A stretch of DNA of 64,000 nucleotides from Sphaeroforma arctica JP610 (taxonomy: Eukaryota), in contig NW_014040452.1 in assembly GCF_001186125.1 (NCBI RefSeq), positions 14,424 through 78,423 of the forward strand. The letters run 5' to 3'. Below are positions 6,601-59,800 of the stretch, piece by piece (position 1 is the stretch's first letter; each line of letters opens with the position of its first letter). The translations under genes were made by a program, and so were the position numbers. The notes beneath the pieces were generated by a model. The model was not told where the DNA came from. It ran no database searches and saw nothing but the letters and a program-made list of their open reading frames with translations.

Positions 6601-7665
6601 TTGGCATACATACACAGCCATGATAGTAATGCAGATGAAGCAGGTTTGGGAAGGTTGAGCGCGAGTGATAAGCCGTCTGTATCCAAGAATGGCCTAAAAA
6701 ATGCATCCTCCCATGAGCGGCAACAAGAGCACAGTCAGACACTTGCTAATTCGAATGCGAAGAGTGCACCGCGTGAGATCTGTCCTGATACAGTCTATGA
6801 TAGGGTACATAGAGACGGCGATGGGCCTGGGGATTTCGGTGTTTTTGAAGGGCAGGGGATATGTATACTAGCACTACTGTCGCTAATTGCACACAGTGAT
6901 GTGGACGTGAGCTTCTGGCAGGCGCGTGCGTTGTTAAGTGCGAGTTACTGCACCCACGTGCATGCGCAGGAAACAGTAAGCGCTACCACGGCCACGAACA
7001 ACCAAACACAGTCCCGCAAGGAGAGGAGAAAAGGATCAGGTAGTGCTAAGATTCCGAACATCCCAAGACCGGAGATTGACCTCATACACTTGCACACACA
7101 GTTTCTGAACATGCTGTCGTTGGCGGTCGATATGGGTGCGTTGCTACAAACGGGACTTGTTGTACCGGTGCTGCACAACGTGGGGATTGCGTCGCTTCCT
7201 AATACCATCTGGCATCTGCAGCAGAGTAAGGCACGACATATCAAGTCAACGAAGAAGAAGGCTAAGCTTTCGATGGCGGCTACTGCCGAATCAATAGGTG
7301 TTTCGAGCACTAATCACCAAGACAATAGTCTGGAAGGGTATGCGAAGCATCCTAATTCTAGCTTATCTCAGCGATTTGCCGCACTGGAAACCCACACGGC
7401 CAGCCGTTCCAGCAACGAAGCGGATGACCGGCCTTCGAGTGATGATTGGTTGCGACTAGGTCTAAACAGATGTGACTTGCAGGTGGCTGGACAACCAAGA
7501 AACATGCATGTGTCGGTGGGAAAACGCACACATACTGGCGCAGAAATGTATGGGGTTAGCGATGAGTTGCTGAGACCTCTGTGTATTGAATGTCGAGCTG
7601 ATGCGAAATTAGAGGCCAGTGTGAGAACTGCTTTGTTATATCTTGTGTCAATTTGTACACAATAA
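691..7665 (+). CDS. Asteroid/ASTE1-like XPG/PIN-domain nuclease family protein, multi-exon, 5' end upstream of window
   Basis: Approximate exons: 691-865 (VVVDGSALLHRL..YVVMDG|gtaag), ~1588-2238 (MADGEADGLVASVA..VLSNDSDFYIY..GYVPL), ~3397-3501 (LAKHLGLDLSDLPLLA), ~4184-5614 (ALCGTDY...) and ~5975-7665 (PIGVENPTRSSAWE..R). These are the PIN/XPG acidic motifs in asteroid-family order, with long low-complexity insertions. Confidence 0.8.
2200..2760 (+). repeat. Degenerate tandem copies (~160-190 bp unit) of an exon 3' end and splice donor
   Basis: TCGACTCTGCAG at 2223, 2410, 2578 and 2739, with similar flanks in the first three copies (e.g. GTCATGGCTATGTGCCG vs GTCATAGCAATGTGCCG upstream; GTACGTTTGTG downstream of copies 1 and 3). 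Confidence 0.75.
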
Positions 7666-13619: not shown

Positions 13620-13843
13620 CTAAGCTGGATGTTGTATCACATGTACTAAGACCAGTGTACAAAGTCTGGACCAGCAGTCAGCTGTCTAATTATATATGGT
13701 TCTGATTATTACAGGAGGGCAATAGCGGAGTACCATGTGTGTAATATGTCCAAAACTATACCATCAGTCCTGCCTAGTTCAGTCGGTGCAGAGCAGCGAT
13801 GGTCCTATGAGTCCAGGTCCTAATGCACTATATATTGCTACTG
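13620..13843 (+). repeat. 5' LTR-like copy (eroded ends)
   Basis: Aligns by eye to 22197-22405 with about 31 mismatches over ~200 aligned bases plus small gaps (~85%). Terminal TG/CA not preserved. Confidence 0.8.
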
Positions 13844-14778
13844 TAGTTAACCCCCCTCCTCCTCCTACTCCTCTTCCTCCTGCCCTCCCTGCCTCCCCTC
13901 ATCAGCTTCTGAAAAGGAGCGTGCCTCATCAACAAGCGTAAATATGAAAGATCACACATGACCTGTTTTGTGCAGATCCTATTCTAGTGATACACCAATA
14001 CATCGTGATGCACCAATACACGTTCCAAAATAATGCTTCTTATCGCCTGCGTTCCGTGGCCTTATCATCGGATGTCGTTTAGTACGGCCAATACATTGAT
14101 ACCTTTAACCTGCACTCGATACTCATTAATAAAGATAGCTGGCCCTACCAATTTTATCAACTTATGCACAGAGACTATCATAGGTGCATAGTATATCTCG
14201 TGCCAAATCTGGATCGTTGGTGCATCAATTCGGTACTTTGCTGATTTTTTCTTTTGCTACTACAGTAGCTGCTCATTGCGTACTGATCATTTCTGCTGCA
14301 TAGATACCGTGGGTTTGGCGCTCCAAGGGCTTTGCCGAGAATGGCTTTAACAGTTACATCCGTGTGATGGGAATAGATTACATAACCCCCGACTCAAGGG
14401 TATAGAAATTGTTATCAACTACAATCGAGTGTGTTTATTTATAGTTGGCAACAGAGCCTGGCACCATCTCCCACTACTAGTGGTGTAGGTAAGCACTAAG
14501 TGATTTTTTTGTAATGTCTTGGTAGCACGTACCAATACTTTCATCCTGTCATTATGCTTTTGCGAAGACACTGGGTGAATGTAGGTATCAAGTAGATCAA
14601 AGATGAATATACTGAATTTATCCATCACGTATGTTTGTGTATGTAGACCGTGGAAGGATATGTGTGTTACAGACAGTGACTGCGCGAAAGCTTGAGGTGT
14701 AAATAGACATATAGTTTTTGGTGTTTAACTGAATACTACGGGAATCGAGGTTTACTTTTTCGTCTATAGCTGTAGGCC

Positions 14779-16950
14779 GTGTATGTTACTATAGCAATAA
14801 GGTGCGACGGGAGCCATGTGTATTCAATTATATTCTCCACAAGAGACGATCACTGTCTAAAGAGGTTTGTCGGGTTTGCCGATGCGTTTAACCGCACCGT
14901 AGCCGAGGCACTTGTCTCCGACAATAATAGTCAGGACAATGCTTCGGATAAGGATGTAGCCACTCCGATTAAAGAGACTACTCCTACAGATAGAGCCCGA
15001 GAGCCAACTATTGCCTCAGCTTCGAAGCTCTCACTTACGAAGCCAAGAAGTGAGACAAGGGACACGTCTCAAGACGCCCCACCCAATTCTTCTGACGAAA
15101 CTCAGAAAGAAAAGTCCCCAATTATAGGGGACAAAGACGAGTCTCAGAAGGTAACTATACCGGAACCAGAAGAGGAGGCAAGCTCAAGTGGCAAACCCGA
15201 ATCTACGTCCGAGACCACTGAGCCAATGCGCATAAGTAAGTTAACTACTGAAAACACTGATCTTAAGAATCAGTTAGCCATCCCTATGAAAGGCATGACT
15301 GTTGAACATGTAGATCGAATGTATGGATCAGGAAAAAACGCAGATCACTTACGCGAGCATGTTTCTCCGGGCACTACTGAAACCTTACAGAAGTGGGCAG
15401 AACGTCGGCTGGCAATTACGCCCGAAAAGCGTAAGGACCTGAGCGCCAAACCTGTGGCAGATGACCCAAATGTGCTCAGCGTATCTATATCTTACGAGGT
15501 ACTACCACCAGAACTCCAGGCTAATTATTCGCCTGTTCTAACACCCGGACATGAGTCGCCTGTCCATGAGGGTATTATAGACCCAGGGGCAGGTAGAAAC
15601 ACTCCGCCACCTTTACCCAACTGGGATGACAATCGTCGGAAACCAGTTAAGATCATAATACCAACAACTATCCAAGGAACAGAGCACCGAAAGGCCTCGA
15701 CCATGAACTTTACACGGGGTAATAAACACTTCCGTAAACGTTTTAACGATGTCGAATTTACTCGCTTCGATCGCACCGCCTTACACCAACCCGGGAGGAT
15801 TTTCACTCTGACGAGGTGACCGAACTTAATAAATCGGTCGACGATTACACCATTAAGATGGAAATCGCCCATGGCGAGCACCATGCCGAGGACATATCAT
15901 ATTTTGCTAATATGATCGCGATCAAGCAGAAACGTATCGATCAGCTACTTCAGGCCCAACGTGGACAAGACCACCGGGATAACCAGAAGTACACGGGACA
16001 GATCAGTCGACTTAAGTCAAACTGGGATGCCAAGTAGGTCGCTTTTATAAACAACCATGACCTCGACACGCTAACCCGTACGCTTAATGTGTTTACGGTC
16101 ATGCTGGAGACGAATGCTATCGCTCCCCAGCAATGAATTTCTGCTTTAATGCAGTTGTTTGACCCTACAGGAACAAGTCACTTGATCCTGCAGCGACACC
16201 AGCATGAACTAGACACTTGTCGTGACTGGCCAGCTGTGTGTTGATTGGTTACGTCCTTATTAAGCAAGGACATGCGCAGTCCAGGACTGAGTTCAATCTT
16301 AAATGAACCAGTTGAGAATACTCCTATTCGGAGTTACATTCTGAAACTTGATGCTGACCTTAAACGTCCAGATATAACAAAGGACAATGCTCAGCGATGG
16401 TACGAGTTCCTGGTTATGCATGTTTTCTGTCAGAACACAGGGAACAAGTCTTTACACCGAGTTGCGACGTAAGTACGCAACTGAGGCTCGAGACAAGGGA
16501 CATGAAACAAAGTTTCATCTATCCCGACTTACGTGGGAACAGTTTTATGACACTGTATCCACCTTTTCCCCGCACACCGAGTAACCTCGTAGGGAAAGGC
16601 GGTAAATAAGACACCGTGCGAGCTCCCTGATCAAGGATACCTCTCACGCCAGACATCATATGATAAGCCTCATCAGACGCGTCCTAATTAGACACGAGCT
16701 CGCGACTCTACTTAATCAACGCGACCCGATAAACGGGCACGCGCAGAGGCGAAGGACAAGGAACTTCCATTTAAGGATATTAAGAAAAGTGCCGACGCAC
16801 AGTGTGGGTATGACATGTACCAATTGACCCCTAACGGTTATTGGAACGGAAGACATGCACCCATCTGTACACACTTTCTTACTAAGTGTGACAAGTGTGA
16901 GAAGACCAATGGCTATCACGATAAGTCTTGCGACACGAAGCCCGACATTA
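14779..16950 (+). pseudogene. Gypsy gag-like region (disrupted)
   Basis: 346-aa low-complexity ORF 14779-15819, coiled-coil-like ORF 15816-16037, broken helical segments, and Cys/His knuckle-like motifs near 16810-16935 (CDKCEKTNGYHDKSC) just before the protease. Confidence 0.6.
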
Positions 16951-17029
16951 AGTTGGAGTGAAAGTACTACCAGGTACAATCGATACAAAGAAGATACAAC
17001 GACTCCTTAGATGAGCGTGAAATAATCCC

Positions 17030-19070
17030 TGTATATTGCAACGGAAATAAAGCCCTTGCATTGATTGATCCTGGTTCAGAAATTTCATGCATATCCGACC
17101 ACTTTGCATTGATGAAAGACATTGAAAGGCGAACTCAAACCACTCACCTAATTTTAGCAGATGATAAAACTTCTAAGTGTGATACCATGGCCACAAATGA
17201 TAAAATCTCCCTGGCCGATGATAGAAATATCACGACTCAAGCTGTGATCGTTAAGATGTCACAGAAGTACGACACTATAGTCGGAATGAGCGATTTGCTC
17301 ACGTTAGTGATAACCGTAACATGCTTACCCAACAACATAGATCCATTCAAGGATCAGTCAGACGATAATTGTCTAAAACCATATACACCACCATCGGACA
17401 CAGTCAAAGAATTAATTCCTGGCTTTGCCGATAAGATAATGGATCATATATTAGTAAATAAGAAGATAAAATTAACCGACTGGGCGAAATTTCTCTTCAA
17501 CGACGGATACGTCAGCCTTGACTTAATCAAGGTAGAATTTACTAAGCTCAAATGTCCTTCAAGAAACTATGTTTCTTAGAGACACGAAGCTGTAGTTAAA
17601 GAACAAGTCGAGAAATGGTTATCCGATGGGGTAATCGAAATCAATTACCAACAAACGCCAGTTAACTTAGTATTATTGGCAGTTGATCAACACAACTCTG
17701 ATGGAACATTTACGAAAGTCAGAGTATGTCTAGATATGAGCCCAATAAATAAATTATTGCAGACTCATAGTTTCCATTTCCCTCGTATAAACGAGTTACG
17801 GTGTTTACATCCATAGACCTAACACAGGGGATCATCAAATGCAAATTTATGAACCCCATCGTAAGTACTTTAGTTTTACCTGGAAAGGTAAACAATATAG
17901 GGTTGCACTCCTTACCAGCATTCTTCCAACAAGTAGCGGAGAAAATATTTGCAGGCATGCCTAACGTAAAAATCTACATTGATGACATAGTCACCATTTC
18001 AAAGACTGATGCTAAATATGCTAGTAAGTAGATTCCTTCAGAGACTCGACGAACAAAACTTCAAGATAAACGAGAGGAAATGTCACTTCGATATAAGCGA
18101 GATATAACTTTCAAGTTATCGCATGTCCGGAAAAGGTATTAAATTCAACCCAGAAAAGGTTGAATATTCCTTAGATTGACGAACACCAACTATTGGGTGA
18201 GATGACAATAGCATGTGTGGGCTTGTAAACTTCCTTCAGGTTAAACACCTTACTTAGCAGAATACTTGAAATTTTGCGGACACTTAAGATGTCACAAAGG
18301 TAAGATAGGAGAGCTATGGACTGAGAAGTGCGATGAGGCATTGAAAACGCTCAAACACGCCGTTTGACAATCTTCTGTAGTACAAGGGCCAGTCGATGGC
18401 ATATCATTCAAAATAGCAACAGACGCCTCCGAAATAGCACTTGGAGAAGTACTATATCATGATATCGACAATAAACCTAGATATGCACAAATATTTATTC
18501 GAGCTATGAATGCATCACAGTTGAATTACCCAACTGTTAAACAAGAATTACTAGCTATTGCTACAGCTATACATACTTTAGAGATTACGCCGTAGAGATA
18601 TTTTACTCTTTAATATATGAGAAAGATAAAGTCAGACCCTCAGTTACTGAGTAGATGGTATGACATAATATCCAAGTTCCCCTTCGATATAAGACATTTT
18701 CCTGGAATACAGAACCATTTACCGGATATGTGATCCAGGTTCGTACCAGACTATAATAAGTCAGTACGAGAGCTCTTGGCCACCGATTAAAAGTGTAATA
18801 CACGATGGTTCGAGCTGGCTCAAAAGATATTTGGGCCACATACAATCGATATTTTTGCTGCAAATCATAATGCACAACCTATAGACGATATGACATTAAA
18901 CTATCCTTTAGGTTCTTGCAAGCAGGAGGTAAGAATATGACGTTTATTGGGCTGTATCCCACTTAAAAACACTACCGCGGCCCGGTCTGCGAAGCCTGTA
19001 ATATAGATTGACCGCCAGAAAGGATCAAAAGATTGGAAACCAACTCTTAAAGGTTCAATGGAGGTGGTCT
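17030..19070 (+). pseudogene. Gypsy pol (protease, RT, RNase H, Dam-like MTase N-terminus; integrase core deleted)
   Basis: LIDPGSEISCIS at 17061 (aspartic protease); FTSIDLTQG ~17805; YIDD 17975-17986; ATDASEIALGEVL ~18416; YPTVKQELLAI ~18527; RWYDII..F.IRHFPGIQNHLPDM*SR ~18655-18739. Confidence 0.85.
18785..18880 (+). pseudogene. N-terminal remnant of a Dam-like N6-adenine DNA methyltransferase in Gypsy pol
   Basis: In frame with RNase H: D*KCNTRWFELAQKIFGPHTIDIFAANHNAQP, matching the DIRS/phage MT pattern DW.L...F..L...(W/F)GP.TIDLFAS..N.Q. Confidence 0.7.
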
Positions 19071-22000
19071 ATCGAACAATTTTTGAGTTCGCTATACAAG
19101 ATTAGATGTGTTATAGTTTCTTCACGTCCGAAAAACACCACCGCGACGTCAAACAAAATAGCAAATTGACATTTCAGAGGCTGCAACTAAATTTTCATAG
19201 CAATGCATGTATATCAGTGACAAGGACAGAGAGAATACTCTGGCGTAGTTGACATTTGTGCGCCAAATTTACATGGTCCTGATATACTTTTGAGGCCATA
19301 ATTAATCGCGACCATGTTGTCCATGTAATACTGCATGTCATGATGCTCGTTCTCCACAAACTCTTGGAGGCAACGTAGTTGATACTTAGTTGATAAATCT
19401 TGTCATCTGCATCCATATACGCTACTTCTTCGAATCAGGGTACAAGAGCAGTTGATAGTAGAAAGCTGCAAGATCACATACTGACTGTACCCAGAATGTC
19501 CAGCCGTGTCGCTGTCGAGGGGTAGAACATAGGGAAGCATTTACATCGTCTTATTTGTAAGGGTTTAGTTCGTTGGCATGCAATAGGCTTTCGCATGAAC
19601 TGGCTGCTTTCGGGAAATTTTCCACAGTATGCAAATTTGTCTGGCCCACTTGCCGTATTCATCCCATTTCGCTGATACCCCAGACACATTAGAGCTCGGT
19701 GTTAAACTTTTTTCGTTTTCGCCGATTAGAGAAATGGATCCCTTGTGCGGTATACACGGCAAAGAAGTTGGGCTCTTTCTTTAATTTTTGCTTCACACCC
19801 ACATCATTCATATATTTTAGGTGCTTCTCATCAAATGAAGGAATGCCGGTGCATTGGTCAAATCCACAATTACATTCAGCTTCTCGCAAAGTCGTATCCG
19901 GTTCATTATTTGGTAACTGGGCCCCAAAGACTAAAGAATTTCCTATGGTCACACCTTTCACATTTTTTTGGAATACAGTCGGATATAAGTCCACAACGTT
20001 AGTTCCCAAATAGATTGCCGACGCATTGTCCACTAGAACACGTCGAAGTAATGTAATATATGCCTGTTGCGAGAGTGTTGCTGTCACATATTCTCCAAAA
20101 CCTTCGACAGTTTAAGGTTTCAGCAAATGTGTGACTCCTCATTGCTGGGTTTGTATATTACGGTATACACTTAACAGGTCTAAGCCATTCTCGGACCACA
20201 TCTCCCTTGGTATATCCATACATAGAACTGACGTGTATGTTGCTGGGTTAACAATGATTAGGGGATGCCGCAGCAGCCACAACCAAGCTCGGGCAGTTTG
20301 TAAAGAGTGCCCCGTCTACGTATAAGTAAAACACATAAGGCAGAGCTTATCTTTGTGTCGCAAGCGGAACTCAGTACAAGTTAATTTGTTGTTCTGTTAA
20401 CCTCTGTATTGTTCACGTTACTTAGAGCGTCGATGTTGGCCGTGGCAGTTATCAGTCATGTCTTGTTGATGTTATTGGTAATCAATCGATTGGCAGCACC
20501 CATGACTATGCCAGTTTTAGTTCCGTGAGTCAGGCTACGGTCTTGGCCAAGTATAAGCTGTTGTCGTGGTGGGGCTATATCAGCAGCTCTGTGTAGGCTG
20601 TTGATATAAAAGCACGCTGTGCTATGTGCAACTCATCCAGCTGATTCCACAGTTAAGGAAGATTCTTGTTGAAGACTGCAAATAGTGCCTCTCGGAGCTC
20701 AATTGTTGTCAGAGGACACATCGCTTGGTACTTAAATCAGCCTTATTCTCTGGATCCACTGCAATGTCAAAGTCAATGTACTCCTATTCGACCCAGACAA
20801 TGATGTCTTGTTAGGGATAATATTCTCTTGTTAGGTCGTTTGTAAAGGAAACACACTCGGTGATGCCATCCGAGACTGCCCAACACGTATAACAAATGTT
20901 GAAAATACTTGACCATCGATAACAGGCAGTCTGCCACGGGGAAACCAGCAGATACGCTAAGGAAATAGATGAATTTGCTTTGATCTTGGGGTCGCCGGAG
21001 TTGGAGTTCTGTTCGTGAATACAAACTCATCATTGTAGATTTACACTTTATCACTGAGGCTGCGTACGACTATGGGTCCACGCAGCTGCCAGCCAATACC
21101 TCTTTGGGAACATTACAGACGGCCCACCAATTTGTAGCGAGTCTAGTGTATCTGTAACCGACTGCAGCTGGAGATCTATAAAGTTTAAATACGTACACAT
21201 TATGCATACCAAGAGGTGCTTCAATACCAGTACAATGTGCAAGGTCCACATTGTGTGTGCTCCATTAGTCAGCTACCTCAAGCCCTATATGAGGGATGAC
21301 TATTGTGGCATGCTGTTGCATATTTCCTAGACCTGGTGGGTGTTTGTACACGTCATTCCTGCCCTTAATATGAGCCGGTATAGCGGCAACAATGCTACTT
21401 TTTCCTATTGTTCAAATCCCATCGCTGGCGTCGCTGGTTAGGACAATCTTCCTGGGTTTCTGTGGCAGCACGTTTTCGAGGTTGTAGGTACCGAACATCA
21501 GGGAGTATTTCCCTCTCAGCGTCTGGAAAGAAAAGAGGCGTGGGTCTAACGCAGTCTGACTGGACGTGGGCTGCTGTTCGAATTGAAACGATTCATGAGC
21601 TCGTTTTGCGTCAGCTGCTTGGGCAAACAGGCTCCTCCACATTCCCGACGAAGTGGGACTATTCTTTTCTTAGATGTTAACATGGCATCCACTCGGGAGC
21701 GCTGACAATACCCTATATTTCGAGATGAAGATAAGCCATGGAGTATTCATGGAAATTCGCATAATGCTCGGGCTTGGTATGGCGAGCAGCGCTATCGTAT
21801 TTTGCAATCAGCCAACGCTCTACAGCATTCTCTGCTCTCCCCGATGCCATAAGCCTGATTCGAATCAGCATAAGTAGATGTGTCACCTTTGCTGCCTCGG
21901 ACGGCAATCGCGTATACTATTTTTATTTTTTGTATTTCAGCCCCCCACTCACGAATAAAGGGGATGATCAAACGGTTGCGGCGACCATAGTACATTGATG

Positions 22001-22159
22001 CTGTTTACACCATACTGTCTATGTCTTTCATTATACGTGTGATCACTATTGTGGTTCGTATTGTAAGAAAACATATTGAATTATTGTGTGTGTGTTGAAA
22101 TCAAATCTAACTTGGATTGATCCCTATTATAGCGGTTAAGATAAAGAGGACTAGAGCTT

Positions 22160-22412
22160 TGTTGTAATAGACTGGACATCGTTTAGTATAGATTAGCTAA
22201 GCTAGATGTTCTGTCACATAAGACTAGTGTGCAAAGACTGGACTATCAGTCAGCTGTCTATTTCTATATAGTTCTGATTATTCCAGGGCCATAGCGAAGT
22301 ACCATATGTGCTATATGACCTAAACTATACTAACAGTCTTGTCTAGCCCAGTCGGTGCAGGGCAGCGATAGTCCTACGAGTTCAGGCCTGGTGCACTACT
22401 GCTACTACAACA
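22160..22412 (+). repeat. 3' LTR of the Gypsy element (253 bp)
   Basis: Starts TGTTGTAATAG and ends CTACTACAACA (terminal inverted repeat, TG...CA). Preceded by a purine-rich tract AAGATAAAGAGGA at ~22138-22150. Confidence 0.85.
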
Positions 22413-23519
22413 TTTAGAAAGTTTAAATACGAAACAAATGACGTGCGTCAAACAAATACGTGAACACTAACTCATCTGTACAGGTAAGCACTTGAAACCA
22501 ACATAGATAGGAAAGATACAAATAGGCCTCACTGTATCAGTTCTCCTCTAACGGAACATTACACCACTCGAAGGTTATCACGTAGCATTCTCCACATACT
22601 ATGCGCGGTCAATTAAATGTTTGCAATACATCCCTGGTGTGGCAGACTATAACTGGGTTTCTGTGATAGTGTAATGGAGCAGTCTATGTCTCTCACCAAC
22701 CATAGGTATCTCTCAACTCTATTCAAAATGCTTGACTACAAGCTACGATATACGGTAACACACCCAGAATAGAGAAAGTCGGAGTTATACATACCACAAT
22801 AGTGTTCAATGGGACAAAGCAGGTCAACAACAAGACAATCGTATAAGTGCACTGTGGATCCACTTCTAGAACTAAGATTAGATTTCAAAATTTGTAAAAT
22901 TGCGCCTAAGTAGATGAACTGTTCATGCACTGCATTTAATTGGCCACTACCTAAATTATTGTATACGATTCCCAAAACGCGACTGTGTAAGTAGGCGCTA
23001 CATATCTGACGGGAGAGCTATCGACATCCAACAAAAATCGAAAGGATAATTGTGCCATATTGGGGACCAGTCTTGTATCCATTGTCACATGGAGACCCAC
23101 ACGGGGAAACCCGAATGATCACGTGCGATAAGCTATGTTGCCCACTTCTGTGCCAGTTATTGAAATTGAATTTGCCGCGCGACAATTGCGGACACTGTTT
23201 CTCAGCTGACAGCCTTGCAGATAAAAAGATTATTTGTAGATTCGTATTGTATGTTTTATTAAATCTATCGGCAATCGTATATTATATTATAGGAGTCCTT
23301 CGTGGCACTTTGTTTGGGCAACCGATGAGTGTACCAGGCGTCTTTTCCTATATTATATACTCCGGTGTAATAAGAGGCTGTTCGTAGCAGTATACTCTTG
23401 TAGGTTTAAACAAGTTTTGTGTGTAGGTGGGTGACGGAGATGAATATCATGTGTCCTTTTTTAAGCCATTTGACAGCTGCATGTGCTCCATCTCAAAGAG
23501 TGAAATCTGTGGTATTAAT

Positions 23520-26500
23520 TTACCACATCATAGCAAAAAGACTTACGAAGGCGACAATAACAGTAGCGACGCTAAATGAGCTGGTAGACGAGGACGCCCC
23601 ATTGAAAGTGAATTCGTCGGCACCGATGTTCGAGATGGCGTCTGCCTTGCTACCTGAGTACCGAATGAAATATTTATTGTCAATAGACTATTGCGATCTG
23701 TGTATCAGAACAGGATTGTTACAATGGAGACGTTCATTTCTAAAATGGTTTAAGGGACAATGCTGATGAGATCATGGAATTTATCGGTTTGATAGTGTCA
23801 TGCGGAACAACAATACATGTAATGATGATTTATACAATCGCGCAATGTTGGACTGAAAAAACAACCACGTGTGTAGTCAAGCATCACATCAACAAGGAAT
23901 TAGGCTTATGTATTGTTTGCTCTCAATGATACTTACGCTCGATCCCATCGTCGTTTACGTATTCGTTGGATTCACTGCCCACCGTCTTTCCCGTGGTCGG
24001 AGCTACTGGGCAAAAAAGTATTGAAGGAAAAGTATATCGGTAAATAACTCTCTAAGTCACATTCTTAAATGTAGCCACCATGCAAAAGGTAAAGGTGGCC
24101 CTTCAGTGAATAGTTCTTGTGCATAGCGACTCTTCCAATAGAAATAAAGGTGAAAAGCATTTTAATGAGCACCGTTTACCCCACTAGCCCACTATAATAC
24201 ACCCGGGTTGCACTAAAACACACACTATGATACACCTTAAAATACACACTATAATACACTTATATATTTTGACTAAGTCAAATTCTACATGTGCAAAATA
24301 TGCAGAAACGCAATTCCATTTTAGTTGCCATGTTTGAGTAATATGCGCCTTTGATTTGCTAATCCCCAAAGTGTTCGCATACAGACTGTATCTCATATCT
24401 AACTTTCGGTAACAGCAGACCAGCGCATACCTTCATTCTCTCCGCTTCGAACTCCATTCTCAAGTCCATTGATGTTCTCCGCTGGAACTTCAGGCAACAC
24501 AGCTGCGTCGGAGACAGTGGGTGTCGAGACAGTGGGTGTTTCGACTGTTGACAGAAGATTCAGCTCAACGATGTTCTTCTCAGGAGTGATCGCAAACGCG
24601 AGGGTGGTGTCGTTTCCATACCTGTATCGTGGAGGTATTGATTATGCTTCTCATAGAAAGATTGACAGACTGTGTGAATGTACATATCACATTTTAAAAC
24701 AAATTAGAGTATATGATCTGTAGACATCAAGCTTCCAACAAGACATTCGAATAATAAAACAGGTAGAGAAACATACTCTTCCTTGGATAGCTGAGCATAG
24801 GACGAGGGATCCAACGATAGAAGCGGATGTTCCTTGCCGACCATTGTGACAACAGCCTGAGAAGTGAGAACAGGTGGTTGATGAGTAAATACTGACAGCA
24901 CACAATAAAAAATCTGTTGATTATTAGAGATCGAAATCTGAACTTCTCTCGTGTAATCTAGGAGGTACTGGCGGAGCCAATGTCATGCTTCGATGTATCA
25001 GAACCGCGATCAAAAGCTATCGACGCTTTGAGACAAAGATTGCTTGTCTGCGAATCGATACGTTGGTGACAAAAGTGTTTACCTCGCACGTGTTGTTATT
25101 TGTAGTGCCGACGGTGATTCCCTGGGGCGTTCCATTGACAATCTTAACGAAGCCTTGCAACCCACAGGCATCTCTTGCCATTCTCTTGCGATACTCCTCA
25201 GCTGTAACATCCATTTTAGGCGATAGAACCGGCAATTCGTTGATGAACTCCTGCACAATACATTGCCGCAACGTGTCAGTAATATATATTTTAACTGGTG
25301 ATATTTAATACCCAACAGTCAAACGCTTGAGATGCCGGAAAATCAATATCATGAGTGTACTTAAGTATTAAACCCGGTTCGGGCTGAAGAGGTAGAATGA
25401 GCTGTGAAATTAGTCAGACGATTGAAATTAAGAGCAAACAAAAGCTAGCAACCGAAACATACCATAACACCTTCGAGTACGAACTGAGCCCAGATACCAA
25501 CTATAGGCATATTGTCCTGTCGGAAGAGCTGCGCATGCATGTTGGACTGGTGGAACACTGATATTGATAAAGCAATGGTAGAAATATTGTGTTAGTATAG
25601 TAATGTTGCTAGCGCAAATGTATAATAGCCTGGTGTAGCACTGTTTTGATGGAAATGGCGACAGTTGCCTTCGCCGAGTTGGCCTACCTAGAACCATATA
25701 AAGCATACACAAAACGATTCGAAGTGGGCAAACCAATCAGTGTTCATTTTTCGAGTTCCTTACAGAATTGCACTGAACTTACTGTATGCATCCTGACGGT
25801 ATTGTATGAAGTTTAGCAACACGCTGAACGCCTCTCGTTCTAAAGCCTCAAGTCCTGTATACGGTGTCCGCTTACATGATGGGCCGTAGACAACCCAGCC
25901 ACACACTCCTTCAGTGTTGTAGTAGTCAGCGAATTGCTCCAGATTATTGATATTGTAGTCGACATTAGGAGCCCTTGGAATCGGGAAAGAAACCACAGGG
26001 TTACTCTTTGTTTGAGACTGCAGGCAACAATATATCGCTGATCCGAGCGTGACAAACTTACAAGTGCGAGCTCTTAATACACGAACAAGGGAGCTCATTT
26101 TTCTCTTCTGTAAAGAGGTTAATTTTTAAAGTCAATGTACCACCTGGTAAACACAAACTCACATTCGAGGAATGATGATTACGTTATCCGATCCGTACGC
26201 ATCTACGGTGGATAAGACTCCGTGGAACGGGTTCTGCAATAGTTGTTGTGAGTGATTGTCGGAGTGAATGTGGGGTCAGATGATGTCCATGGTTTCATCA
26301 CGATTAATACGAAGATGTTGAGCCCATAGGCTCCGGGTTGAGAGAAAAAATGTCTTAAAAAAAAGAGTTCAAATGTGCTTATAAACCCACAATTGAAATG
26401 CAAACCGTCTCTGGCTATGAAATAGCAAAGGCCATTTCAATGCTTCCTCTAGGCATGCTTTTTACAAAACCCTGGTAACGGAACATGAGATTTCTCACAG

Positions 26501-44394: not shown

Positions 44395-47300
44395 ATGTCA
44401 GATTCAACTCAACCAAAAGGGGTCCTCATACCCCGATCTACTTTCACAAACTTCGATTCCGCCACAAGATTTCGCACAGACTTCTTCCTTCGCCTTGACG
44501 CTTATCAATCCATCACCCACGCCAACCAGCACCTCCACCTACTCAACAAAACTCTTGACCACATCCTTGACCCCGACAACCACCCACCAGTGCATCCCAT
44601 CACTATATACCTCGCAGCACATGCTGCTTTCTCAGACCTCGCAACCACGCGTGCGATCGCTGAACGGAATGACGCGCATGCTACACACACTACTGAATAC
44701 AACACTCTTAGTGCCACTACTGACGAACACGAGGTCACCATCTACGTCCTCAAAGAAGAAAAGGACTCCTTACTCGACAAATTCAAGGAGGCTCGTGCAC
44801 AGCGTGATGCCAACTTTACCTCCAACCTCGAAGAAATCCTCGAACATCTCCAGCAGTCAAGGACATTCTCATCACCAAACTCGAAAGCGCCCGCAAGGAA
44901 CGCGACGACACCCAAACCAACCTCACTGCCTGCATCGCCGATCGCAACTCACTGAACGAACAGCTTGGTCACTTTCACGCATCCCCTCACCCCGACACAT
45001 CCGATCTCGCCGCCGACAACAAGCGCCTTCACAAAATCCACGATGATTCCGTCGCCAAAGCCACCGCCCACACTTACACTATCTCTGAACTCCGTGTCGC
45101 CAATATCCAGCTCGAAGCCACCATCTCCTCTCTCCGAAACGAACACGATGAACTCCTCACTGCCACTCTCCCCGAAATGGTTACCATACAGGCATTCCTC
45201 CACATCGCCCACACAGACATCGCGCAACTCAAAACACAACTCGACAAAGCACGCTCCCAGCCCGTCGTCACCGACTCCACCACCCTTCGTCACCGTCTCC
45301 TTCTTGCCGAGCAAAACCTTCGCCGTATGGCCGGTCCTCAGACACCACCGATTACTTCACCCCCATACTCCCCCTTCGGTACCTCTCACACTCAATCCAC
45401 GCAACAGCTCCACAACCTCCCTGCCTCCCGCACCGGCACTGCCAACGCCTTCAAATACAATGGCACATATGCAGCCACCAAGCTCACGAGAGATAAAAAC
45501 TTCACTAATTGGCACAGACAGTTCAGATATACGATGAAGAAGCACGACGTCCTCCACACCCTGCACCCCAACACTACTGCCGATGATGCCGAGCTCACCG
45601 TCGGCACTACGATTCTCTTTGAATCCCTTGGCCCCGGCCTCTCCGAGCAATACGACACATGTCTCGACCAACCCCCGAGTTTTTTCTATCAACGTATCTG
45701 CCAAGATTTTAACTCCGTCACGATTGGCCGCATTTGGGAACTCTTAGTGTAACCCCTCACGCTTCCACAACAACCCTCCTTAGACGACAGCGTCGCTAAG
45801 GTATCTCTGCTCAGGGACCAACTCAAAGGCCTCAATACCACCATGCCTAAATACTAACACATCTGCTCCCTCCTTCAATCCCTGCCAGACAGCTTCCAGC
45901 TCATCGCACAGGATATCATGGCCACTACCGACATCAATGCCTCAATGCCAGTGCAGTACTCAATAGCTCCTCTCTCTATGGCGTAGTCAGTACTCGCTTT
46001 CAATCACGTGGTCATGGCACCGATACCCCCAGGCGCCCACCCATTGGCATAAACTCTACCACCGGTAACTGCGCCGCCTATACACAACCTGGCCACAATG
46101 CATATGAGTGTCCCAACACTACCTGCCGCCGATGTGGTAGCAAAGACCACAAAGGGAATACCTGCACCACCACAGGCAAACTCACATGCGACCATTGTAG
46201 ACACTCCACCGGCCACACGACTGCAGCGTGTATTCGCGGCAAATGCAACTCATCTACCACTGCCACCAACTGAGATGCCAGGGTAACGCGCGCCACCCAC
46301 CCCAACCTCTCCTCCAATACCACCCTCCCAACCCACTATACTGTGCAATCTCTCACTCTGCGCGCAAAGCCCCGCACCGATACCGCCTTCATCGACTCAG
46401 GGACAGATATCTCCATCGTCACCTCCACCGATCACCTCACCGACCTTCAGTCCGGCACATATATTATTGAACTGGCTGGCGGCTCTACTACCACCACATA
46501 CACACGCGGTACCATCCCTGGCATCGGCCCTGCCTTCGTGCTACCCACCGCTGCCCATCAATCTATCCTCTCCGTCCGCAACCTCCAACGCAATGGCTAT
46601 ACAGTCACTTTCCCCGAGATCAACACACCCAATAATCCCGGCGAGTGTCACATCACCTACGGAACTGACACCATTCAGATCGTCACCGAAGCCGCCGGTC
46701 GCTACATACTCAACGCCTTCCAAGCTGAGAACCTCACGCTTCGGACACCAGTCCACACGCGCCACCAAAGCTATGGCTATTGCTAACAACCTCCCCATCA
46801 AACCGCCAATAGCCTACTGCAACGATTACCAACTCGCACCCGATCTCTTCGAAGACCACGTCCAAAAACCCTTCGGTCTCATCGACATCGACTTGTTTGC
46901 ATCCAAACATAACAAGCAAGTACCCGCTTACTGTACTGAAGACTACATCGACAAAGTCACGCCCTACCACGATACATATAAACAAAACTAGCACCAACCC
47001 AACAAGAAGCTCTACGGCAATCAACCATGGAAGAACTTCTTCAAAAGCTGTCGCAAACTCGACAAAGACGCCGGCCGGGTCATCATGGTCTTCCTGTGAA
47101 ACCGCGCGCCTCCTGGTGGACACAACTCATGGACCACCTCCAACCTCACGTCGAAAGTATCACATCATCGCCCAACACCTTCATCCGCCGTGGCTCCGAT
47201 GGCTCTCAAGAGTTCGTTACCAATCCACCTTGGCTCTACACTGGTGTCGCTCTTTTCGGACCCACCAAATACGCAGTCCCCATTTCCGCCGGCCTCCAAA

Positions 47301-50300
47301 CCGCCATTGACATCTTTATCCTCCACTCCGGCAAACCTGAATGCACTTGCACCTCCTGCGCGAGAGGCAAGATGCGCAAGAAAGCCACTAGCAACAAGCC
47401 CCGTTCTCTTCCCGACATAGGCTCCGAATGGCAAGTCGACCTTGAAGGGAAATTCGAAGAAAGCTACGGGGGCCACGCCTATACTATCCGCTACTTTGAA
47501 CGTACTTCTGGTCTCGAATACGAGGAAAACCTCAAGCACAAAAACGACGCCGCTGCCACCCTTGACCGCTTTTACACCTGGATTGAGAACATAGGCCGCC
47601 GTCGCATACGCACTGTTATTGCCGACCGCGGTGGTGAGTTCATTTCCGCCGAATTCAAACGAGTGAACCATCTACATCATGCACAAATCCTATACAACGG
47701 TACTGACGACTCTGCCCAACACGGCGGCGTTGAACGTGGTCTCCAGGCAAATAAGAAGACTGCTCTCTGCCTCATCGCCCAATGCAAGCAACTCAGACAC
47801 ATGTGGGCGGAAGCTAAGTCTCACGCCACCCACCTACACAATATCTCTCCTCGTGACACCAACCCCGGCCGTGCCAGCCCCTACGAGCACTTCTTCGGCC
47901 GTACACTCACCGCCCACGTGCACGCATTACGAGTATATGGCTGTATTACCATGTTTATCGACCATGGTAACAAAGATAAGCTCCGTGAACAAGTTTGCTT
48001 CGGCGTTCTCCTTGCTCGCGATCTCTTCTCCAGAAACCCTGAAGAATACCGCATGCTCAACACCGCCACAGGCCTAGTCATCACCACACGTCACGTAACA
48101 TTCAACGAAGGAATCTTCCCACTTTGGAAATCACACGGGTCCAAATCCCGCCCATATTTCACCGAGGACCAAATCTCCAAGGTTAACACATATCGTGACA
48201 CTCTCCCATCACTCCCCACGGATCCACAAAGCGAATCCACTGACCCCGAGCCCACGCTCACTCACGAGCCGCTCACCACACCCAGTTCACACACAGAGGA
48301 CATGCCCTCCACCAACCCCATTTCAGCAACCTCCGACAACCCTGTATCCCCTGATCTCCATGAGCGCCTCCAAGCCGCCACTCAGCGTGTCGCTCGCTCC
48401 ACAAAGTCAACACCTACTGCACGGCAAGCGGACAAGGCACACATTAGCACTGACGCACACCACACACAACAACCTGCCAAAGCCGCCCAACTCGACCGTG
48501 CTGCTCAGGAACAAGCATGCATCCTCGGCAACGCATACAATGACAGGCTACAACAACACATCCGTAAACGTCCCAACTCCCGTGAACTACGCAACCTTCT
48601 CATCGACACATGTGACAACACACATCACACCGGCATACCTGCCATTACGTCCAACCCTCCTCCACTCACGCGGAAAGTACGTAAGCATGTCTACAGTGTG
48701 TGCGAATCTATACAAAACTCACCAATCACCCCTACTACCATCAACCAAGCACTGAAATCCCCTGAAGCTGACCTCTGGCGCGCGGCCATTCAACGCGAGC
48801 TTGACAGCCTCCACAGTACCGGCACAAACGTCCTTTGTGATGCCACTGACCTCCCACCTGACGTACTTACCGTCACATCTAAGTGGGTCTTCAAGATCAA
48901 GATGATCAATGGCGTCATCGACAAGTACATGGCTCGGCTAGTCGCTCGCGGATCCACACAAACCAAGGACGTCAACTTCACGGAAACCTACGCACCCACC
49001 TGCACTCACGACAATCTCCGCACACTCCTCGCTATTGCCGCCAACCAGGGCTGGCACACAAAGCAGATGGATGTCAACATCGCATTTCTTCACGCTGATC
49101 TCGACCACCCGATCTACATGAAAGCTCCATCGGGCCCCGCACAAATCGGCCTTGTCCCTTCCAAAATCCTCGAACTCAAAAAGTCCCTGTACGGGCTCAA
49201 GCAGTCCGGCAAGCTCTGTTTCTCACTGATCAAATCCAAACTTCTCTTCTTCGGCTTCACCCAAGCCCACACTGACAGATGCCTCTTTCACATCCGCACC
49301 CCCACATATAACTGCACAGTGCTTATATATTTCGACGACCTCATTATCTGCGGCTTTACCCAAAAAGATGTGGACAAATTCAAGCGACAACTCCTTGCCG
49401 TCTTCGACTGTTCCATACTCGGAGAGCCCGCCTAGCTATTAGGTTGTCGTATCGTCACCAACGACATATCCACTAGCGTTGTCCAGACCTCCTACATCGA
49501 CGAGGCCGTCCAACACTTCGGCCTTGAGTCTGCCCACGCCGTCCACACGCCCCTCCCTGCAACTACCCTTTCCGCCCACCATGGCCCGCCCTTCCCCTGC
49601 GCGTACCGCGAACTCGTCGGCACTCTCCTCTACCTATCCATCCTCGTCCGTATTGACATCACCTTCGCCGTGAACACTCTTTCGCGATTCCTCAATAACC
49701 CCAGCGAGGACCGCTGGAACGTAGCATGCAGAGTCCTACGCTACCTCAAAACACACCCAACACTCGGACTCACATACACAAAGTGTCCACAACCCCTTTC
49801 CACCGACGCATACACAGACTCAGACTATGCTAGTTGCCCTGACACACGTCGATCAACGACAGGCTACGTCATCCGTGTTTGCAACACACCCGTTATCTGG
49901 AAAAGCAGGCAACAGAAAACAGTCAGTACCAAGCCCGCTGAGGCAGAGTACTTTGCCACCAGTGAGGCCGCCAAACACATACAGTGGCTGCGTAACTTCC
50001 TGTCCGAACTCAACCTCGCATCTGACAGCCCGACCACACTCTTCTATTGCGATAACAAGTCTGCTGTCCACGTAATTACCAACACGGGCACGCCAAAACA
50101 ACTAAAACACATCGACATCCGTGTGCAAAATATCCGCGATCTGCAGGAACAAGGCGTGATTGACACCAAATACGTCGCCACTTCCGATTACATCGCAGAC
50201 TATCTCACCAAAAGCCTGCCACGCCCCGCACACAGTAAACATACCAGTTCGACGCTTACCCCGGTGCAAGATCCCGACGCTCGTGCCGATGCCACACCTA

Positions 50301-50401
50301 CCACCAACCTCATCGCAGCCTTTTCTCACTCCAGCGAATTCGAACACACACATATGGCTAACACTATCTTTCGAGTTTGTTTCCTACATGAAGCTAACTA
50401 G
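44395..50401 (+). pseudogene. Copia gag-pol polyprotein (disrupted)
   Basis: Gag NFTNWHRQFRYTMKKHDVL (~45498); knuckles CAAYTQPGHNAYEC and CRRCGSKDHKGNTC (~46069-46165); PR FIDSGTDISI (~46388); IN RFGH (46737), CTSC (47348-47359), WQVDLEG, ADRGGEF, GGVER; RT SKWVFKIK, LVARG, LKKSLYGLKQ, IYFDDL; RH YTDSDYA, AEAEY, CDNKSA, KHIDIR, ADYLTK. Confidence 0.92.
46824..47265 (+). pseudogene. Dam-like DNA N6-adenine methyltransferase domain inside Copia pol
   Basis: Reconstruction across one stop (46989-46991) and one frameshift (~47090): DYQLAPDLFEDHVQKPFGLIDIDLFASKHNKQVPAYCT..HDTYKQN*HQPNKKLYGNQPWKNFFKSCRKLDKDAGRVIMV/LPVKPRASWWTQLMDHL..TFIRRG..NPPWLYTGVALF. Confidence 0.8.
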
Positions 50402-50561
50402 ATCCAGGAGAGTTACACACATGGTCCAACTTCCCGACTTTCTATCACAACACACCACATTGGCACCAAATCCAGTGAGAGGAGAGCCATCCATCTCATA
50501 CTTCCGAACCCAACCTCGCTTCACATCGCACGCGCTTCACACCACATTTGGTTTTCAAATT

Positions 50562-50569
50562 CAGGAGAG
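50562..50569 (+). other. Polypurine tract of the Copia element
   Basis: CAGGAGAG directly before the 3' LTR TG. Confidence 0.65.
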
Positions 50570-50741
50570 TGTTGGAGCAAATTTAAAACCCAAACTAACC
50601 CTAGAGATATTTGGTGTCAGAGTGTCAAAGTGTCATGTTGAGCAAATACAGCATGGTACACACGCCGTAGAATATTGTGAATATGTACATATTAGACCTA
50701 CAATATGATAACAAACTTACTTGTAAATATATGTTCTAACA
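50570..50741 (+). repeat. Copia 3' LTR
   Basis: Direct repeat of 44120-44291. Confidence 0.95.
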
Positions 50742-56844: not shown

Positions 56845-59800
56845 TTATTGCACATGCTCAGTAGGCTTGACATATAGGTGTGTGGCTACGTTGCCCGTTG
56901 CAAAGCTGATCGTGACATCGTCCGAAATAGAGTGGAGACTCAACTTCGGTAGTGCAATCAATCCACAGGCTAATGGACACAACTGGTAGGTGTGCGACTG
57001 ACTCGACATGGGCAATACCCTCACTTTACTATATTTGTAACCTGTGTTTGAAATGGTATGCAATAGCGATGGTATAAGAAGGCAATTACCGTCATTTCAT
57101 TCGAATCTATGATGTGGCAGCAAGAGCCACCAATAAATCCACACATCATTGTTCTCAGTGAAGGCGAAAACAATCTCAAAACCAGCTTTGTTCCGGTAAG
57201 AAAAAACTAATACCAGCGGCAGCAAAGCCAACTATGTATGCCAGCGGGCGTAGATGCGATTACAGATAAACGTGCTTATATTTTGAAGCGCCGTCCGACA
57301 CTTAGTTTCTAGTCAAAACACATTGCTTGAGTGCACAGATAGCTGTATCACGATAAGCATCGTCCATATTTTCAACCTTATTGAAACGCTAATATCCGTT
57401 GGGCAAACAGCTATGGGTCCATGGTTTTAAAGACGTTCAACCCTATTTATGCAAGCTTACGTAATCGAAGCAGCTGTAGATCGTGCTGTTTGTATGCTAG
57501 CCTTCTATGCACATACCTGAAAACATGAATGAATCGCTGGCTTCCATTGTGAATGCCACGTGTTGTACTCTATTCGATTTGTTGAATAGCCGATGTGTAA
57601 CGGTCAGCGGCGTATTGAGGAAGCCAACCGATGCAATGTCTGTGCAATTGCAGGCAAGTACAGGTAACATGCGAACTCAAATTGAATATGGTTTTGACAT
57701 TAATGATACTGAGTTTGGATTTTTATGCTTGCCCCACTCAACATCCAAACTCGACGGGCGACGCGACGCGTATGTACGGTACAGCATCCAATGCACAGTG
57801 ACATAGATGTACAAGTGCCAGATGCCGGCCATATATGTACTGCACTACTCTAAATATCATCGGGTGCGACTACACACTATTGAACAATTAGCTAAGAAAG
57901 TAGCGCGCATACATACCTGTTTCAAGTACGAGCGGCTGCCTTTCAATTACAACTGATGGCAACAATATGACAGAGCTGCCCCGTCGATTCTCTTTTGTGC
58001 TGTAGCAGTGAAGTAAGGGACAAAATCATTAGGGTGCAAGCACTCGACTGTATAACGAATGCGTATGTCTTCTTATTAGATAAGTCACGAAGGTGGACAC
58101 AGCACCGAAAGGGCTCTTCCCGTCGCGAACTGATTTGAAGACAAACTTTGCTAACTTAGACACTGTCGGTTGCGAAATTTTTTATAGTAGGGAAAAGAGC
58201 TGGGCCCCAGAAACGAAGCCCGACAGCAGGTCAAAAAATCGTGAACTATACGGATGCAGATAAACATGCCATCAACACTCAGTAGGCCGCAGTATTCATA
58301 TAACACAAGTAATACCTTTTCCAGTGGATGAGCATCTCACCCACGTCCACAACCTTACTGTGTCCTACTGGCAAATCTAGATTGCACCTCAGATACAGGC
58401 ATTCGCTCCAAGCGTGCTCACAATATAAATTAAAGTCTTTTCGACTGACGTGAGATGTGCCCTGCGCCATTTCTATATCTGAGGATAGCTGCAATTCAGT
58501 TGATAACACATCGATCCTGTGCCAGCCGCAGTCACATATGGTGTGAAATTGGAGGGTAAAGTTCAGTAAGCATAAGTGAAAACGGATTGTATAAATCCGT
58601 AATTGGTGAGCGGCAAGCAGTATAAAACAAAAAGGCTCCCCAGACAAATATATGCAATAAGCTTGGCAAAAGCTCGCAACAACCGATCATCATGAGCAAC
58701 TATTATAGATAATGAAAACCTATGTGCAGTGTAGCAGCGATTTCAAGCTCCATTGAAACAATTCCCACAAGCTGTACTAAATTTACTTACTCAAACGGAA
58801 TTTTGCTGATCGCATCCACCATAACCATAAAGGTGTCTCCAGAGGCGACCGCATCCTCTCGTACAGGCCTATGGGAAATTAAATACGAGTCAGAACTCCA
58901 ATAGTACTTTGTATGATTTAAAAATTATCCTAGGCATATGTATACAAATCGATTTTAGCTACTGAGCGCTCGACTAAGCGAATGCACGCCACCACACGCC
59001 CAATCAGATCAGCCTGAGGGTTTGTTCCATGAGCAAACAATTGCCCATTATGTTACAGCGAATGATACCATGTGTAAGATGAACAAGACAGACATGCGCG
59101 CGTTCGAGATGAACAATAAAACAACGATACGTGTACCTAAATTGGTGGGCCACCTTAGCTTGCCATTCGAACGGCTCGATGACTGTCAGTGGGAAAGAGA
59201 GCTCACTGACAGTAGCCACCCCTTGGCACATATAAGACAACCGCACCGCCAATGCACGCTCATCCACATCTGTCAAATTATGCAGGAAGAAGGACAGGTC
59301 GTGTGTGACACCAGACAACAGTTCAGGCAGCGGCTTCTCCAATGTGTGCGTGAGAGTGTAGTTATCTGCGTTCTGATTGTCCCTGAAATGGAAATGAGCA
59401 ATAACGCCACGAGCACGTGAGTTTAGATAAGCAGCAAAGGGACGAAAGCGAGAGCCATCTAAATGACGACAAACCATGACTGATAAAATTTCAAGAAACG
59501 ACACATAGTCTGCGAGCTGGTTGCATGGTTGGTGCAGCAACAACTAAAACCCGACGTGATCGAAACGATTTTGATGTACGAGATGCACACAAGACCATGG
59601 ATATCAATCAGTATGTATCTGATACACCTGCACGACATTGTCAATGTGCACAGAAAGTTGTGCATACAACACAGAAGGAATAGCACATATAGACAAAGCC
59701 TAGTTCAGCACGCGTCGTATTGGGTACACAATGAGTCCTACATACCCATGCATTATTTCAGATTGTACGGAACCGTCGCTGCCGTTTGCAGAAATCGCGT

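What the first reader, a model, noticed from the sequence alone, without database searches (positions are those of the whole stretch)
18785..47265. Apparent convergent capture of adenine methyltransferases by two unrelated LTR superfamilies in one genome
Seen: the two segments align (Gypsy D*KCNTRWFE-LAQKIFGPHTIDIFAANHNAQ vs Copia DYQLAPDLFEDHVQKPFGLIDIDLFASKHNKQ), yet they are divergent and sit at different pol positions (after RH vs inside the IN zinc finger). In both the MT would be adjacent to the integrase N-terminus. Inference: finding both within ~30 kb suggests MT-bearing retroelements are common in this host and that the domain is selected for. That would point to a transposon-encoded 6mA system interacting with host chromatin marks.
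Basis: inference. Interest (0 to 1): 0.85.

Follow-up and report, generated by a model that had tools for sequence, protein, structure and literature searches.

The report
Copia integrase with inserted adenine methyltransferase
In a single-celled relative of animals, a Copia-type jumping gene carries a Dam-like adenine-methyltransferase domain wedged inside the zinc finger of its integrase, which likely brings the domain to each new insertion; the neighbouring Gypsy element holds only a stub of such a domain, a kind already described in this species.

Summary
The Copia half is real and appears unreported. The Gypsy half is real but already known.

The host is Sphaeroforma arctica or a very close relative. 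A complete but decayed Copia element (44120-50741) carries a DIRS/Dam-type methyltransferase (MT) domain of about 165 aa between the His and Cys halves of the integrase zinc finger. The same layout occurs in a second copy and in a second Copia family (52% identity over the MT N-half, 38% over the integrase core). It is therefore a fixed, old feature of the lineage, not a nested DIRS fragment.

The Gypsy copy keeps only 29 residues of MT after RNase H and has no detectable integrase. Gypsy DAM-LTRs in this species are described in a May 2026 preprint whose main text never mentions Copia.

Trees lean towards Copia taking its MT from a Gypsy-type element, but a DIRS donor is not rejected. The catalytic motif is variant (NQPW/NIPF) and activity is untested.

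Verdict: new variant of a known kind, interest 0.55.

The parts
44120..44291 (+). Copia 5' LTR (TG...CA), followed by PBS-like GGTTATGGG at 44292-44300; 5-bp target-site duplication AAGTG/AAATG with one mismatch
   Evidence: 93% identity to the 3' LTR over 176 columns. The PBS consensus is recalled, not tested.
44246..46273 (+). Copia gag region, broken by frameshifts and stops; CCHC knuckle at 46124-46165
   Evidence: weak Pfam Retrotran_gag_2, E 0.078
46376..46735 (+). Copia protease (FIDSG at 46388) and linker
   Evidence: sequence; 86% identical to P0001, whose Atlas structure neighbours are Copia Pol_BBD/gag_pre-integrase clusters (a lead only)
46737..46748 (+). His half of the integrase HHCC finger (RFGH); this copy lacks the first His at a frameshift, while P0001 and P0003 keep both
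46821..47090 (+). MT N-half: DIDLF 46884-46898, motif IV YGNQPW 47013-47030, in-frame stop at 46989-46991
   Evidence: (Pfam Dam E 0.012, below cut-off)
47093..47311 (+). MT C-half, after a frameshift near 47092, in one open frame with the CxxC, integrase and RT
   Evidence: (32% to P0004 over 73 aa, E 1e-8)
47348..48121 (+). Cys half of the zinc finger (CTSC 47348-47359), integrase core (VDLEG, DRGGEF, HGGVER) and SH3-like domain
48845..50119 (+). Copia RT (RVT_2; YFDD at 49328) and RNase H, with one stop between them
   Evidence: (RVT_2 E 1.2e-39)
50562..50741 (+). Polypurine tract and Copia 3' LTR (50570-50741)
13620..13830 (+). Gypsy 5' LTR (approximate ends)
   Evidence: 81% identity to 22197-22398 over 211 columns
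17025..18730 (+). Gypsy protease, RT (YIDD at 17975) and RNase H, heavily decayed
   Evidence: (RT_RNaseH_2 E 3e-17)
18791..18877 (+). Gypsy MT stub, 29 residues, in frame after RNase H
18880..22196 (.). 3.3 kb of unassigned DNA where the rest of MT and the integrase are expected
   Evidence: no match; near-random stop density
22197..22398 (+). Gypsy 3' LTR (approximate ends)

Best explanation
A Copia lineage of Sphaeroforma carries a DIRS/Dam-type methyltransferase domain inserted inside the integrase zinc finger, so the domain likely stays on the mature integrase and would put N6-methyladenine on the new cDNA or its target site, likely seeding the host's permissive 6mA mark on fresh copies. 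Shown: the position, the recurrence in two divergent families, the conservation, the host-element codon usage and the predicted fold. Inferred: the domain is not cleaved off, because it splits a metal-binding finger; it is catalytically active; its substrate is DNA; host AMT1 maintains the mark (model borrowed from the preprint); and the domain came from a Gypsy RH-MT-IN element rather than straight from DIRS. The window's own copy is dead, and the Gypsy element nearby is a decayed member of the already described DAM-LTR kind.
For: The layout PR-HH-MT is in one reading frame in P0001 (a second copy, 85-88% identical) and in P0003 (a second family that also has a Copia integrase core). MT-C, CxxC, integrase and RT are in one 817-codon frame in the window. 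Between families the MT N-half is 33/64 identical, against 43/112 for the integrase core and 22/54 for the protease end. Third-position C is 51-53% in MT, 44-59% in the other Copia domains and 13-26% in the Gypsy domains. Contigs of four runs, from identical to under 90% alike, cover the MT, and none of the 9 listed joints cuts out just the MT. The model of P0004 (pLDDT 77.5) matches PCIF1 (Z 11.5, rmsd 3.3, 140 aligned), T4 Dam (Z 10.7, 2.4, 111) and E. coli Dam (Z 9.9, 2.6, 113). The DxFA motif and the Asn, second Pro and aromatic residue of motif IV are kept. The preprint reports 6mA in this species and more 6mA and expression on DAM-LTRs. Copia MTs plus P0055 form a clade at 97/98 in the 27-row tree and in 5 of 6 random subsets.
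Against: Motif IV is NQPW or NIPF, not NPP(Y/F/W). Iyer et al. regard DIRS1-type MTs as likely inactive, and the preprint saw no methylation from retroelement Dam domains in E. coli. The best structural match is an RNA enzyme. The MT conservation figure is biased, because those proteins were retrieved through the MT. No intact HH-MT-CC sequence was available, so it is not shown that the finger still folds around the insert. The Gypsy origin has only 86/49 support in the 56-row tree, where a long-branch row joins the group. The 27-row set was chosen after seeing that tree. AU tests reject neither a DIRS sister (p 0.41) nor Gypsy monophyly (p 0.22). All Copia-type cases come from one species.
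Confidence: 0.45

Rival explanations
1. The domain is fixed in the integrase but no longer catalyses. It binds SAM, adenine or chromatin, and would tether or target the integration complex.
For: Variant motif IV in all three Copia sequences that span it. 57 of 94 relatives have FPPF, without the Asn. Iyer et al. call DIRS1 MTs likely inactive. The preprint's E. coli assay was negative.
Against: The Copia versions keep the Asn and the aromatic residue in two families only about 34% identical over the whole domain. An N-hydrophobic-P-aromatic motif is used by active KsgA/Erm enzymes (own knowledge); these enzymes appear among the fold hits.
Confidence: 0.3
2. The domain is active on RNA, like its relative PCIF1, and would methylate the element's genomic RNA or the RNA-DNA intermediate inside the particle.
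For: PCIF1 is the best structural match (Z 11.5, against 10.7 for T4 Dam). Iyer et al. place DIRS1 MTs in the PCIF1 clade. The preprint itself suggests a hybrid substrate.
Against: The two Z values differ by less than 1 and are tied. PCIF1's WW domain is absent. The position inside the integrase points to DNA ends (inference).
Confidence: 0.15
3. On origin only: Copia and Gypsy captured the domain independently from DIRS elements.
For: A DIRS-type protein (P0005) was the only non-Sphaeroforma hit of the single-sequence search and was the sister in 1 of 6 subsets. AU p 0.41. The Gypsy stub is not specially close to the Copia MT.
Against: P0055 (Gypsy RH-MT-IN) is the sister in 5 of 6 subsets and at 97/98. 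It is also the best non-Copia match of both MT C-halves.
Confidence: 0.35
4. The MT segments are nested DIRS debris or neutral passengers.
For: Both window copies are broken, and the Gypsy segment is only 29 residues.
Against: Same position and frame in two distant Copia families. No DIRS RNase H end before the domain and no recombinase after it. Host-element codon usage. The Gypsy junction matches an intact Gypsy protein from elsewhere.
Confidence: 0.03

Closest known systems
DAM-LTR retrotransposons, especially the Ichthyosporean DAM-LTR lineage (Fernandez-Moreno et al., bioRxiv 10.64898/2026.05.21.726589; whole main text read, supplements not visible)
   Same: Dam-like domain inside the pol of an LTR element, same host species, same proposed link to host 6mA. 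The window's Gypsy fits this kind.
   Different: The described lineages are Ty3/Gypsy-like and were classified through RVT_1; 'copia', 'Ty1', 'PF07727' and 'zinc' occur 0 times in the main text. Here the element is Copia, the domain is inside the integrase finger, and the NPP triplet is NQP/NIP.
DIRS1-type MT domain, PCIF1 clade of N6A-MTases (Iyer et al. 2016, PMC4738411, passages and supplement parts 27-28; Muszewska et al. 2013, PMC3783388, passages)
   Same: Same domain family and fold. Three entries of the supplement's S. arctica list (320, 167 and 346 aa) match P0001, P0004 and P0003 by length plus one; this is a length match only.
   Different: In DIRS the MT follows RNase H at the end of pol, in elements with a tyrosine recombinase and no protease or DDE integrase. 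The supplement files these proteins as DIRS1-like and has no occurrence of 'copia'.
Retrotransposon-borne cytosine methyltransferases: SymbioLINE-Dnmt, SymbioDIRS-Dnmt3, KnitGypsy-Dnmt3 (de Mendoza et al. 2018, PMC5890265, passages)
   Same: A methyltransferase carried in a retroelement ORF under purifying selection.
   Different: C5-cytosine enzymes, unrelated to the Dam-like domain; that paper found none in Symbiodinium Copia.

Membership tests
Ty1/Copia (element 44120-50741) | Paired LTRs with TG...CA ends, PBS, PPT and 5-bp target duplication | tested here: met
   one mismatch in the duplication
Ty1/Copia (element 44120-50741) | Order PR-IN-RT-RH with RVT_2-type RT | tested here: met
Ty3/Gypsy (element 13620-22398) | LTRs, and protease followed by RT and Gypsy-type RNase H | tested here: met
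Ty3/Gypsy (element 13620-22398) | Integrase after RNase H | tested here: inconclusive
   none detected in this decayed copy
DAM-LTR (2026 preprint) | Dam-like domain in the pol of a non-DIRS LTR element | tested here: met
   full domain in Copia, stub in Gypsy
DAM-LTR (2026 preprint) | Ty3/Gypsy-like RT and organisation | tested here: not met
   not met for the Copia element (RVT_2); the Gypsy element fits
DAM-LTR (2026 preprint) | Asn-Pro-Pro catalytic triplet | tested here: not met
   NQP in the window and P0001, NIP in P0004; region missing in the Gypsy copy
DAM-LTR (2026 preprint) | 6mA enrichment and higher expression of insertions; AMT1 in the host | not testable with these tools
   no methylome or genome held; reported for the species' DAM-LTRs in the preprint
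Pfam Dam PF05869 | Score at or above the gathering cut-off of 28.1 bits | tested here: not met
   15.7-19.2 bits for the four Copia-type sequences, three of them partial domains
DIRS/PCIF1-clade N6-adenine MTase domain | Profile match to DIRS-type MT domains and Rossmann MTase fold | tested here: met
   independent profile E 1e-13 (window) and 2e-22 (P0004); fold
DIRS/PCIF1-clade N6-adenine MTase domain | Methyltransferase activity and substrate | not testable with these tools
   needs an assay
DIRS elements | RT-RH-MT with tyrosine recombinase, no protease or DDE integrase | tested here: not met
   both window elements have a protease and the Copia has a DDE core; compare the canonical DIRS locus L001

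The most novel reading that the evidence does not exclude
The first Copia-type DAM-LTR. A Gypsy element handed its adenine methyltransferase to a Copia lineage within ichthyosporeans, where it became a permanent insert in the integrase zinc finger. The result is an integrase-methyltransferase that writes the host's active 6mA mark on each new copy at the moment of integration.
Probability: 0.25. Interest if true: 0.78.

Novelty: new variant of a known kind. Interest (0 to 1): 0.55.

Why it matters
Why retroelements carry Dam-like domains is open, and the one heterologous assay I read (in the preprint) was negative. In DIRS and Gypsy the domain sits at or near polyprotein junctions, so its partner protein is ambiguous. 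Inside the integrase finger it is very likely part of the integrase, which points at integration as the step to assay. It extends DAM-LTRs to the other main LTR superfamily in a cultivable species with a nanopore 6mA data set, so Copia-MT and MT-less Copia can be compared directly. The Copia domains score below Pfam's cut-off, so screens based on PF05869 and RVT_1 would likely miss them.

Tried and rejected
- No whole genome is held, so no census or dN/dS across copies was possible. Only 3 clean MT differences were listed; all 3 are synonymous, too few to count as a test.
- No RNA holder was listed; one run is a guess. This is no evidence on expression.
- No read-level view of other Gypsy copies was obtained, so deletion versus insertion at 18880 stays open.
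- Search with the MT C-half plus CxxC: 0 of 177 candidates, lengths 428-1364 only.
- Metagenome contigs: 1 locus from 161 pattern matches, a plain DIRS. Viral contigs: 0 of 30.
- PDB by sequence: no true MT hit for the profile; only a weak integrase hit, E 0.85, for the Copia core.
- By eye, 18990-19150 resembled a Gypsy integrase C-terminus and minus-strand 20111-19692 a SET/post-SET domain. Neither was supported.
- NPPW at 47222 as the catalytic motif: rejected. It misled alignment A1, which was replaced by A3.
- The RT row was out of frame and was recomputed.
- Copia-type MT outside S. arctica: 0 of 94 non-Sphaeroforma relatives by context and motifs. Only the top 7,995 candidates of 292-2000 aa were scored, and a full polyprotein may be longer, so this is weak evidence of absence.
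- Literature: searches found no paper describing a Copia with a Dam-like domain. Passages of PMC12210899, PMC12477816 and PMC9033089 were not relevant. Subscription journals, Repbase and the preprint's supplements were not searchable.
Full report
HOST AND SETTING. No genome is held for the window. A protein search with the Copia segment returned two proteins among 70 candidates, both Sphaeroforma arctica gene models: P0002 (100% identical, probably this locus) and P0001 (85%, a different contig). The host is therefore this ichthyosporean or a very close relative.

THE COPIA ELEMENT. It has LTRs at 44120-44291 and 50570-50741 (93% identical), TG...CA ends, a PBS-like stretch, a polypurine tract and a 5-bp duplication with one mismatch. 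The order is gag, protease, integrase, RT (RVT_2, E 1.2e-39) and RNase H. The copy is dead, with several stops and frameshifts. Between RFGH (46737-46748) and CTSC-x-GK (47348) lie about 200 codons, whereas the whole Pfam GAG-pre-integrase profile has 67 positions. The extra sequence is a DIRS/Dam-type methyltransferase (MT). Pfam Dam gives only 15.7 bits, but a profile of 94 non-Sphaeroforma MT domains gives E 1e-13 over positions 4-90 of 148 and continues weakly in the next frame. The C-half aligns to P0004 at E 1e-8. Motif IV is YGNQPW at 47013-47030; the NPPW at 47222 aligns with the C-terminal strand of relatives.

IS IT A FIXED FEATURE? Yes. A full HMMER search of 1.84 billion representatives gave 5 hits, 4 of them from S. 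arctica. P0001 runs protease, both histidines and the MT N-half in one frame. P0003 is a distant family with the protease end, WHDRLGH, the MT N-half and a Copia integrase core; its gene model skips the MT C-half. P0004 is a nearly whole MT whose tail matches the window's sequence just before the CxxC, so it is probably Copia too (inferred). Between families the MT N-half is 33/64 identical, the integrase core 43/112 and the protease end 22/54. This fits purifying selection, though retrieval through the MT biases the comparison. Third-position C is 51-53% in MT, 44-59% in the other Copia domains and 13-26% in the Gypsy domains, so the insert is old. Contigs from four runs (44-184 laid per run, many under 95% alike) cover all 30 bins. 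None of the 9 listed joints cuts out just the MT; one short-sided joint (44741 to 49604) spans most of the coding region and likely comes from a distant relative. Contigs in two runs carry an extra base at the 47092 frameshift. Contig depth is not a copy number, and MT-less relatives under 80% identity would not be seen.

THE GYPSY ELEMENT. It has LTRs at about 13620-13830 and 22197-22398 (81%), protease, RT and RNase H, all heavily decayed. RNase H and the following 29 residues are collinear with P0055, an intact PR-RT-RH-MT-IN-chromodomain protein from an unnamed source (31% over 220 aa, E 4e-24), so the stub is a native RH-MT junction. It covers only profile positions 7-35. The rest of the MT and the integrase were not found in six frames, and the remaining 3.3 kb has near-random stop density. 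Whether this is a deletion or an insertion is unresolved.

RELATIVES AND ORIGIN. A profile search scored 7,995 candidates and returned 95 proteins, none with a precomputed RVT_2 domain. Of the 94 non-Sphaeroforma domains held, 91 match a loose RNase H-end pattern just upstream (90 by eye), almost all DIRS-type. Two are clear Gypsy (P0055, P0052) and none is Copia. In a 56-row tree (redundancy-filtered from 98) the Copia MTs form a clade at 90/88 and join P0055 and the long branch P0097 at only 86/49. After I dropped 29 rows (6 long branches, 2 partial Copia rows, 21 to thin DIRS), Copia plus P0055 had 97/98. In 6 random subsets under LG+G4 (8 planned, 6 finished) the sister was P0055 five times and the DIRS-type P0005 once. 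AU tests rejected neither Copia+P0005 (p 0.41) nor Gypsy monophyly (p 0.22), and rejected Copia+P0008+P0013 (p 0.014). A Gypsy-to-Copia hand-over is the leading reading (about 55%) but is not shown: no full-length host Gypsy MT was available and the trees are unrooted.

FOLD AND MECHANISM. The AlphaFold model of P0004 (49 rows, pLDDT 77.5) is a compact Rossmann methyltransferase. Its best matches are PCIF1 (Z 11.5), T4 Dam (10.7) and E. coli Dam (9.9). Because the domain splits the zinc finger, I infer that it stays on the mature integrase and reaches the cDNA ends and target DNA. The most likely role (0.45) is to methylate adenine there and seed the AMT1-maintained permissive mark, which is the model proposed for Gypsy DAM-LTRs. 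Against this, motif IV is NQPW/NIPF, Iyer et al. consider DIRS1 MTs likely inactive, and the preprint's E. coli assay was negative. A non-catalytic binding role (0.30) and RNA or hybrid methylation (0.15) remain open.

WHAT IS KNOWN. The May 2026 preprint 10.64898/2026.05.21.726589 (whole main text read; supplements closed) describes DAM-LTRs, including an ichthyosporean Gypsy-like lineage in S. arctica with more 6mA and higher expression. Its classification used RVT_1, and Copia is not mentioned. Its supplements, or its S. arctica family list, could include Copia families unlabelled. The supplement of Iyer et al. lists 18 S. arctica gene models as DIRS1-like MTs, three of which match my proteins by length, with no mention of Copia. 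Nine paper searches found no Copia with a Dam-like domain. Earlier AI notes of this scan report many Gypsy Dam cases and, separately, dinoflagellate Copia with a cytosine-MT-like domain between protease and integrase. These notes are unchecked leads.

VERDICT. Observation partly confirmed and interpretation partly supported. The headline idea, and the Gypsy element, are already in print for this species. The Copia element with an MT inside the integrase finger is a real, lineage-fixed new variant, so far seen in one species, with untested activity. Interest 0.55.

Noticed in passing
window 18880-22196: 3.3 kb inside the Gypsy LTRs with no recognisable domain. The longest open stretch is 140 codons on the minus strand (20111 downwards) and holds a CxCxxxxC motif that resembled post-SET by eye; no support from Pfam or PDB.
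   Followed up: partly
window 33785-35600 and 38150-39600: Long (TA)n/(TATG)n arrays, each with an assembly gap (N runs 34859-35367 and 38739-39414).
   Followed up: no
window 27664-27879: Tandem array of a 27-bp unit, 67-80% identity to the reference copy.
   Followed up: no
window 2154-2756: Four degenerate copies of a 68-100 bp repeat, spaced 161-187 bp.
   Followed up: no
window 35794-36318 (+): Open frame with VVLGD-GRSPRMQ-H, recalled as the start of an ALG1-type mannosyltransferase; not tested.
   Followed up: no
window 4036-7665 (+) and 59700-61658 (-): Long open frames (546, 571, 652 aa), probably host exons, without a credible Pfam match.
   Followed up: partly
P0052/P0103, P0090, P0097 (protein hits): Other MT placements: after integrase and chromodomain at the end of a Gypsy pol, ahead of a protease-like region, and in a 441-aa protein with no retroelement domain on contigs up to 28.9 kb.
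   Followed up: no
L001 1-6566: Apparently intact DIRS element (gag, RT-RH-MT, recombinase-like frame) in a metagenome contig.
   Followed up: partly
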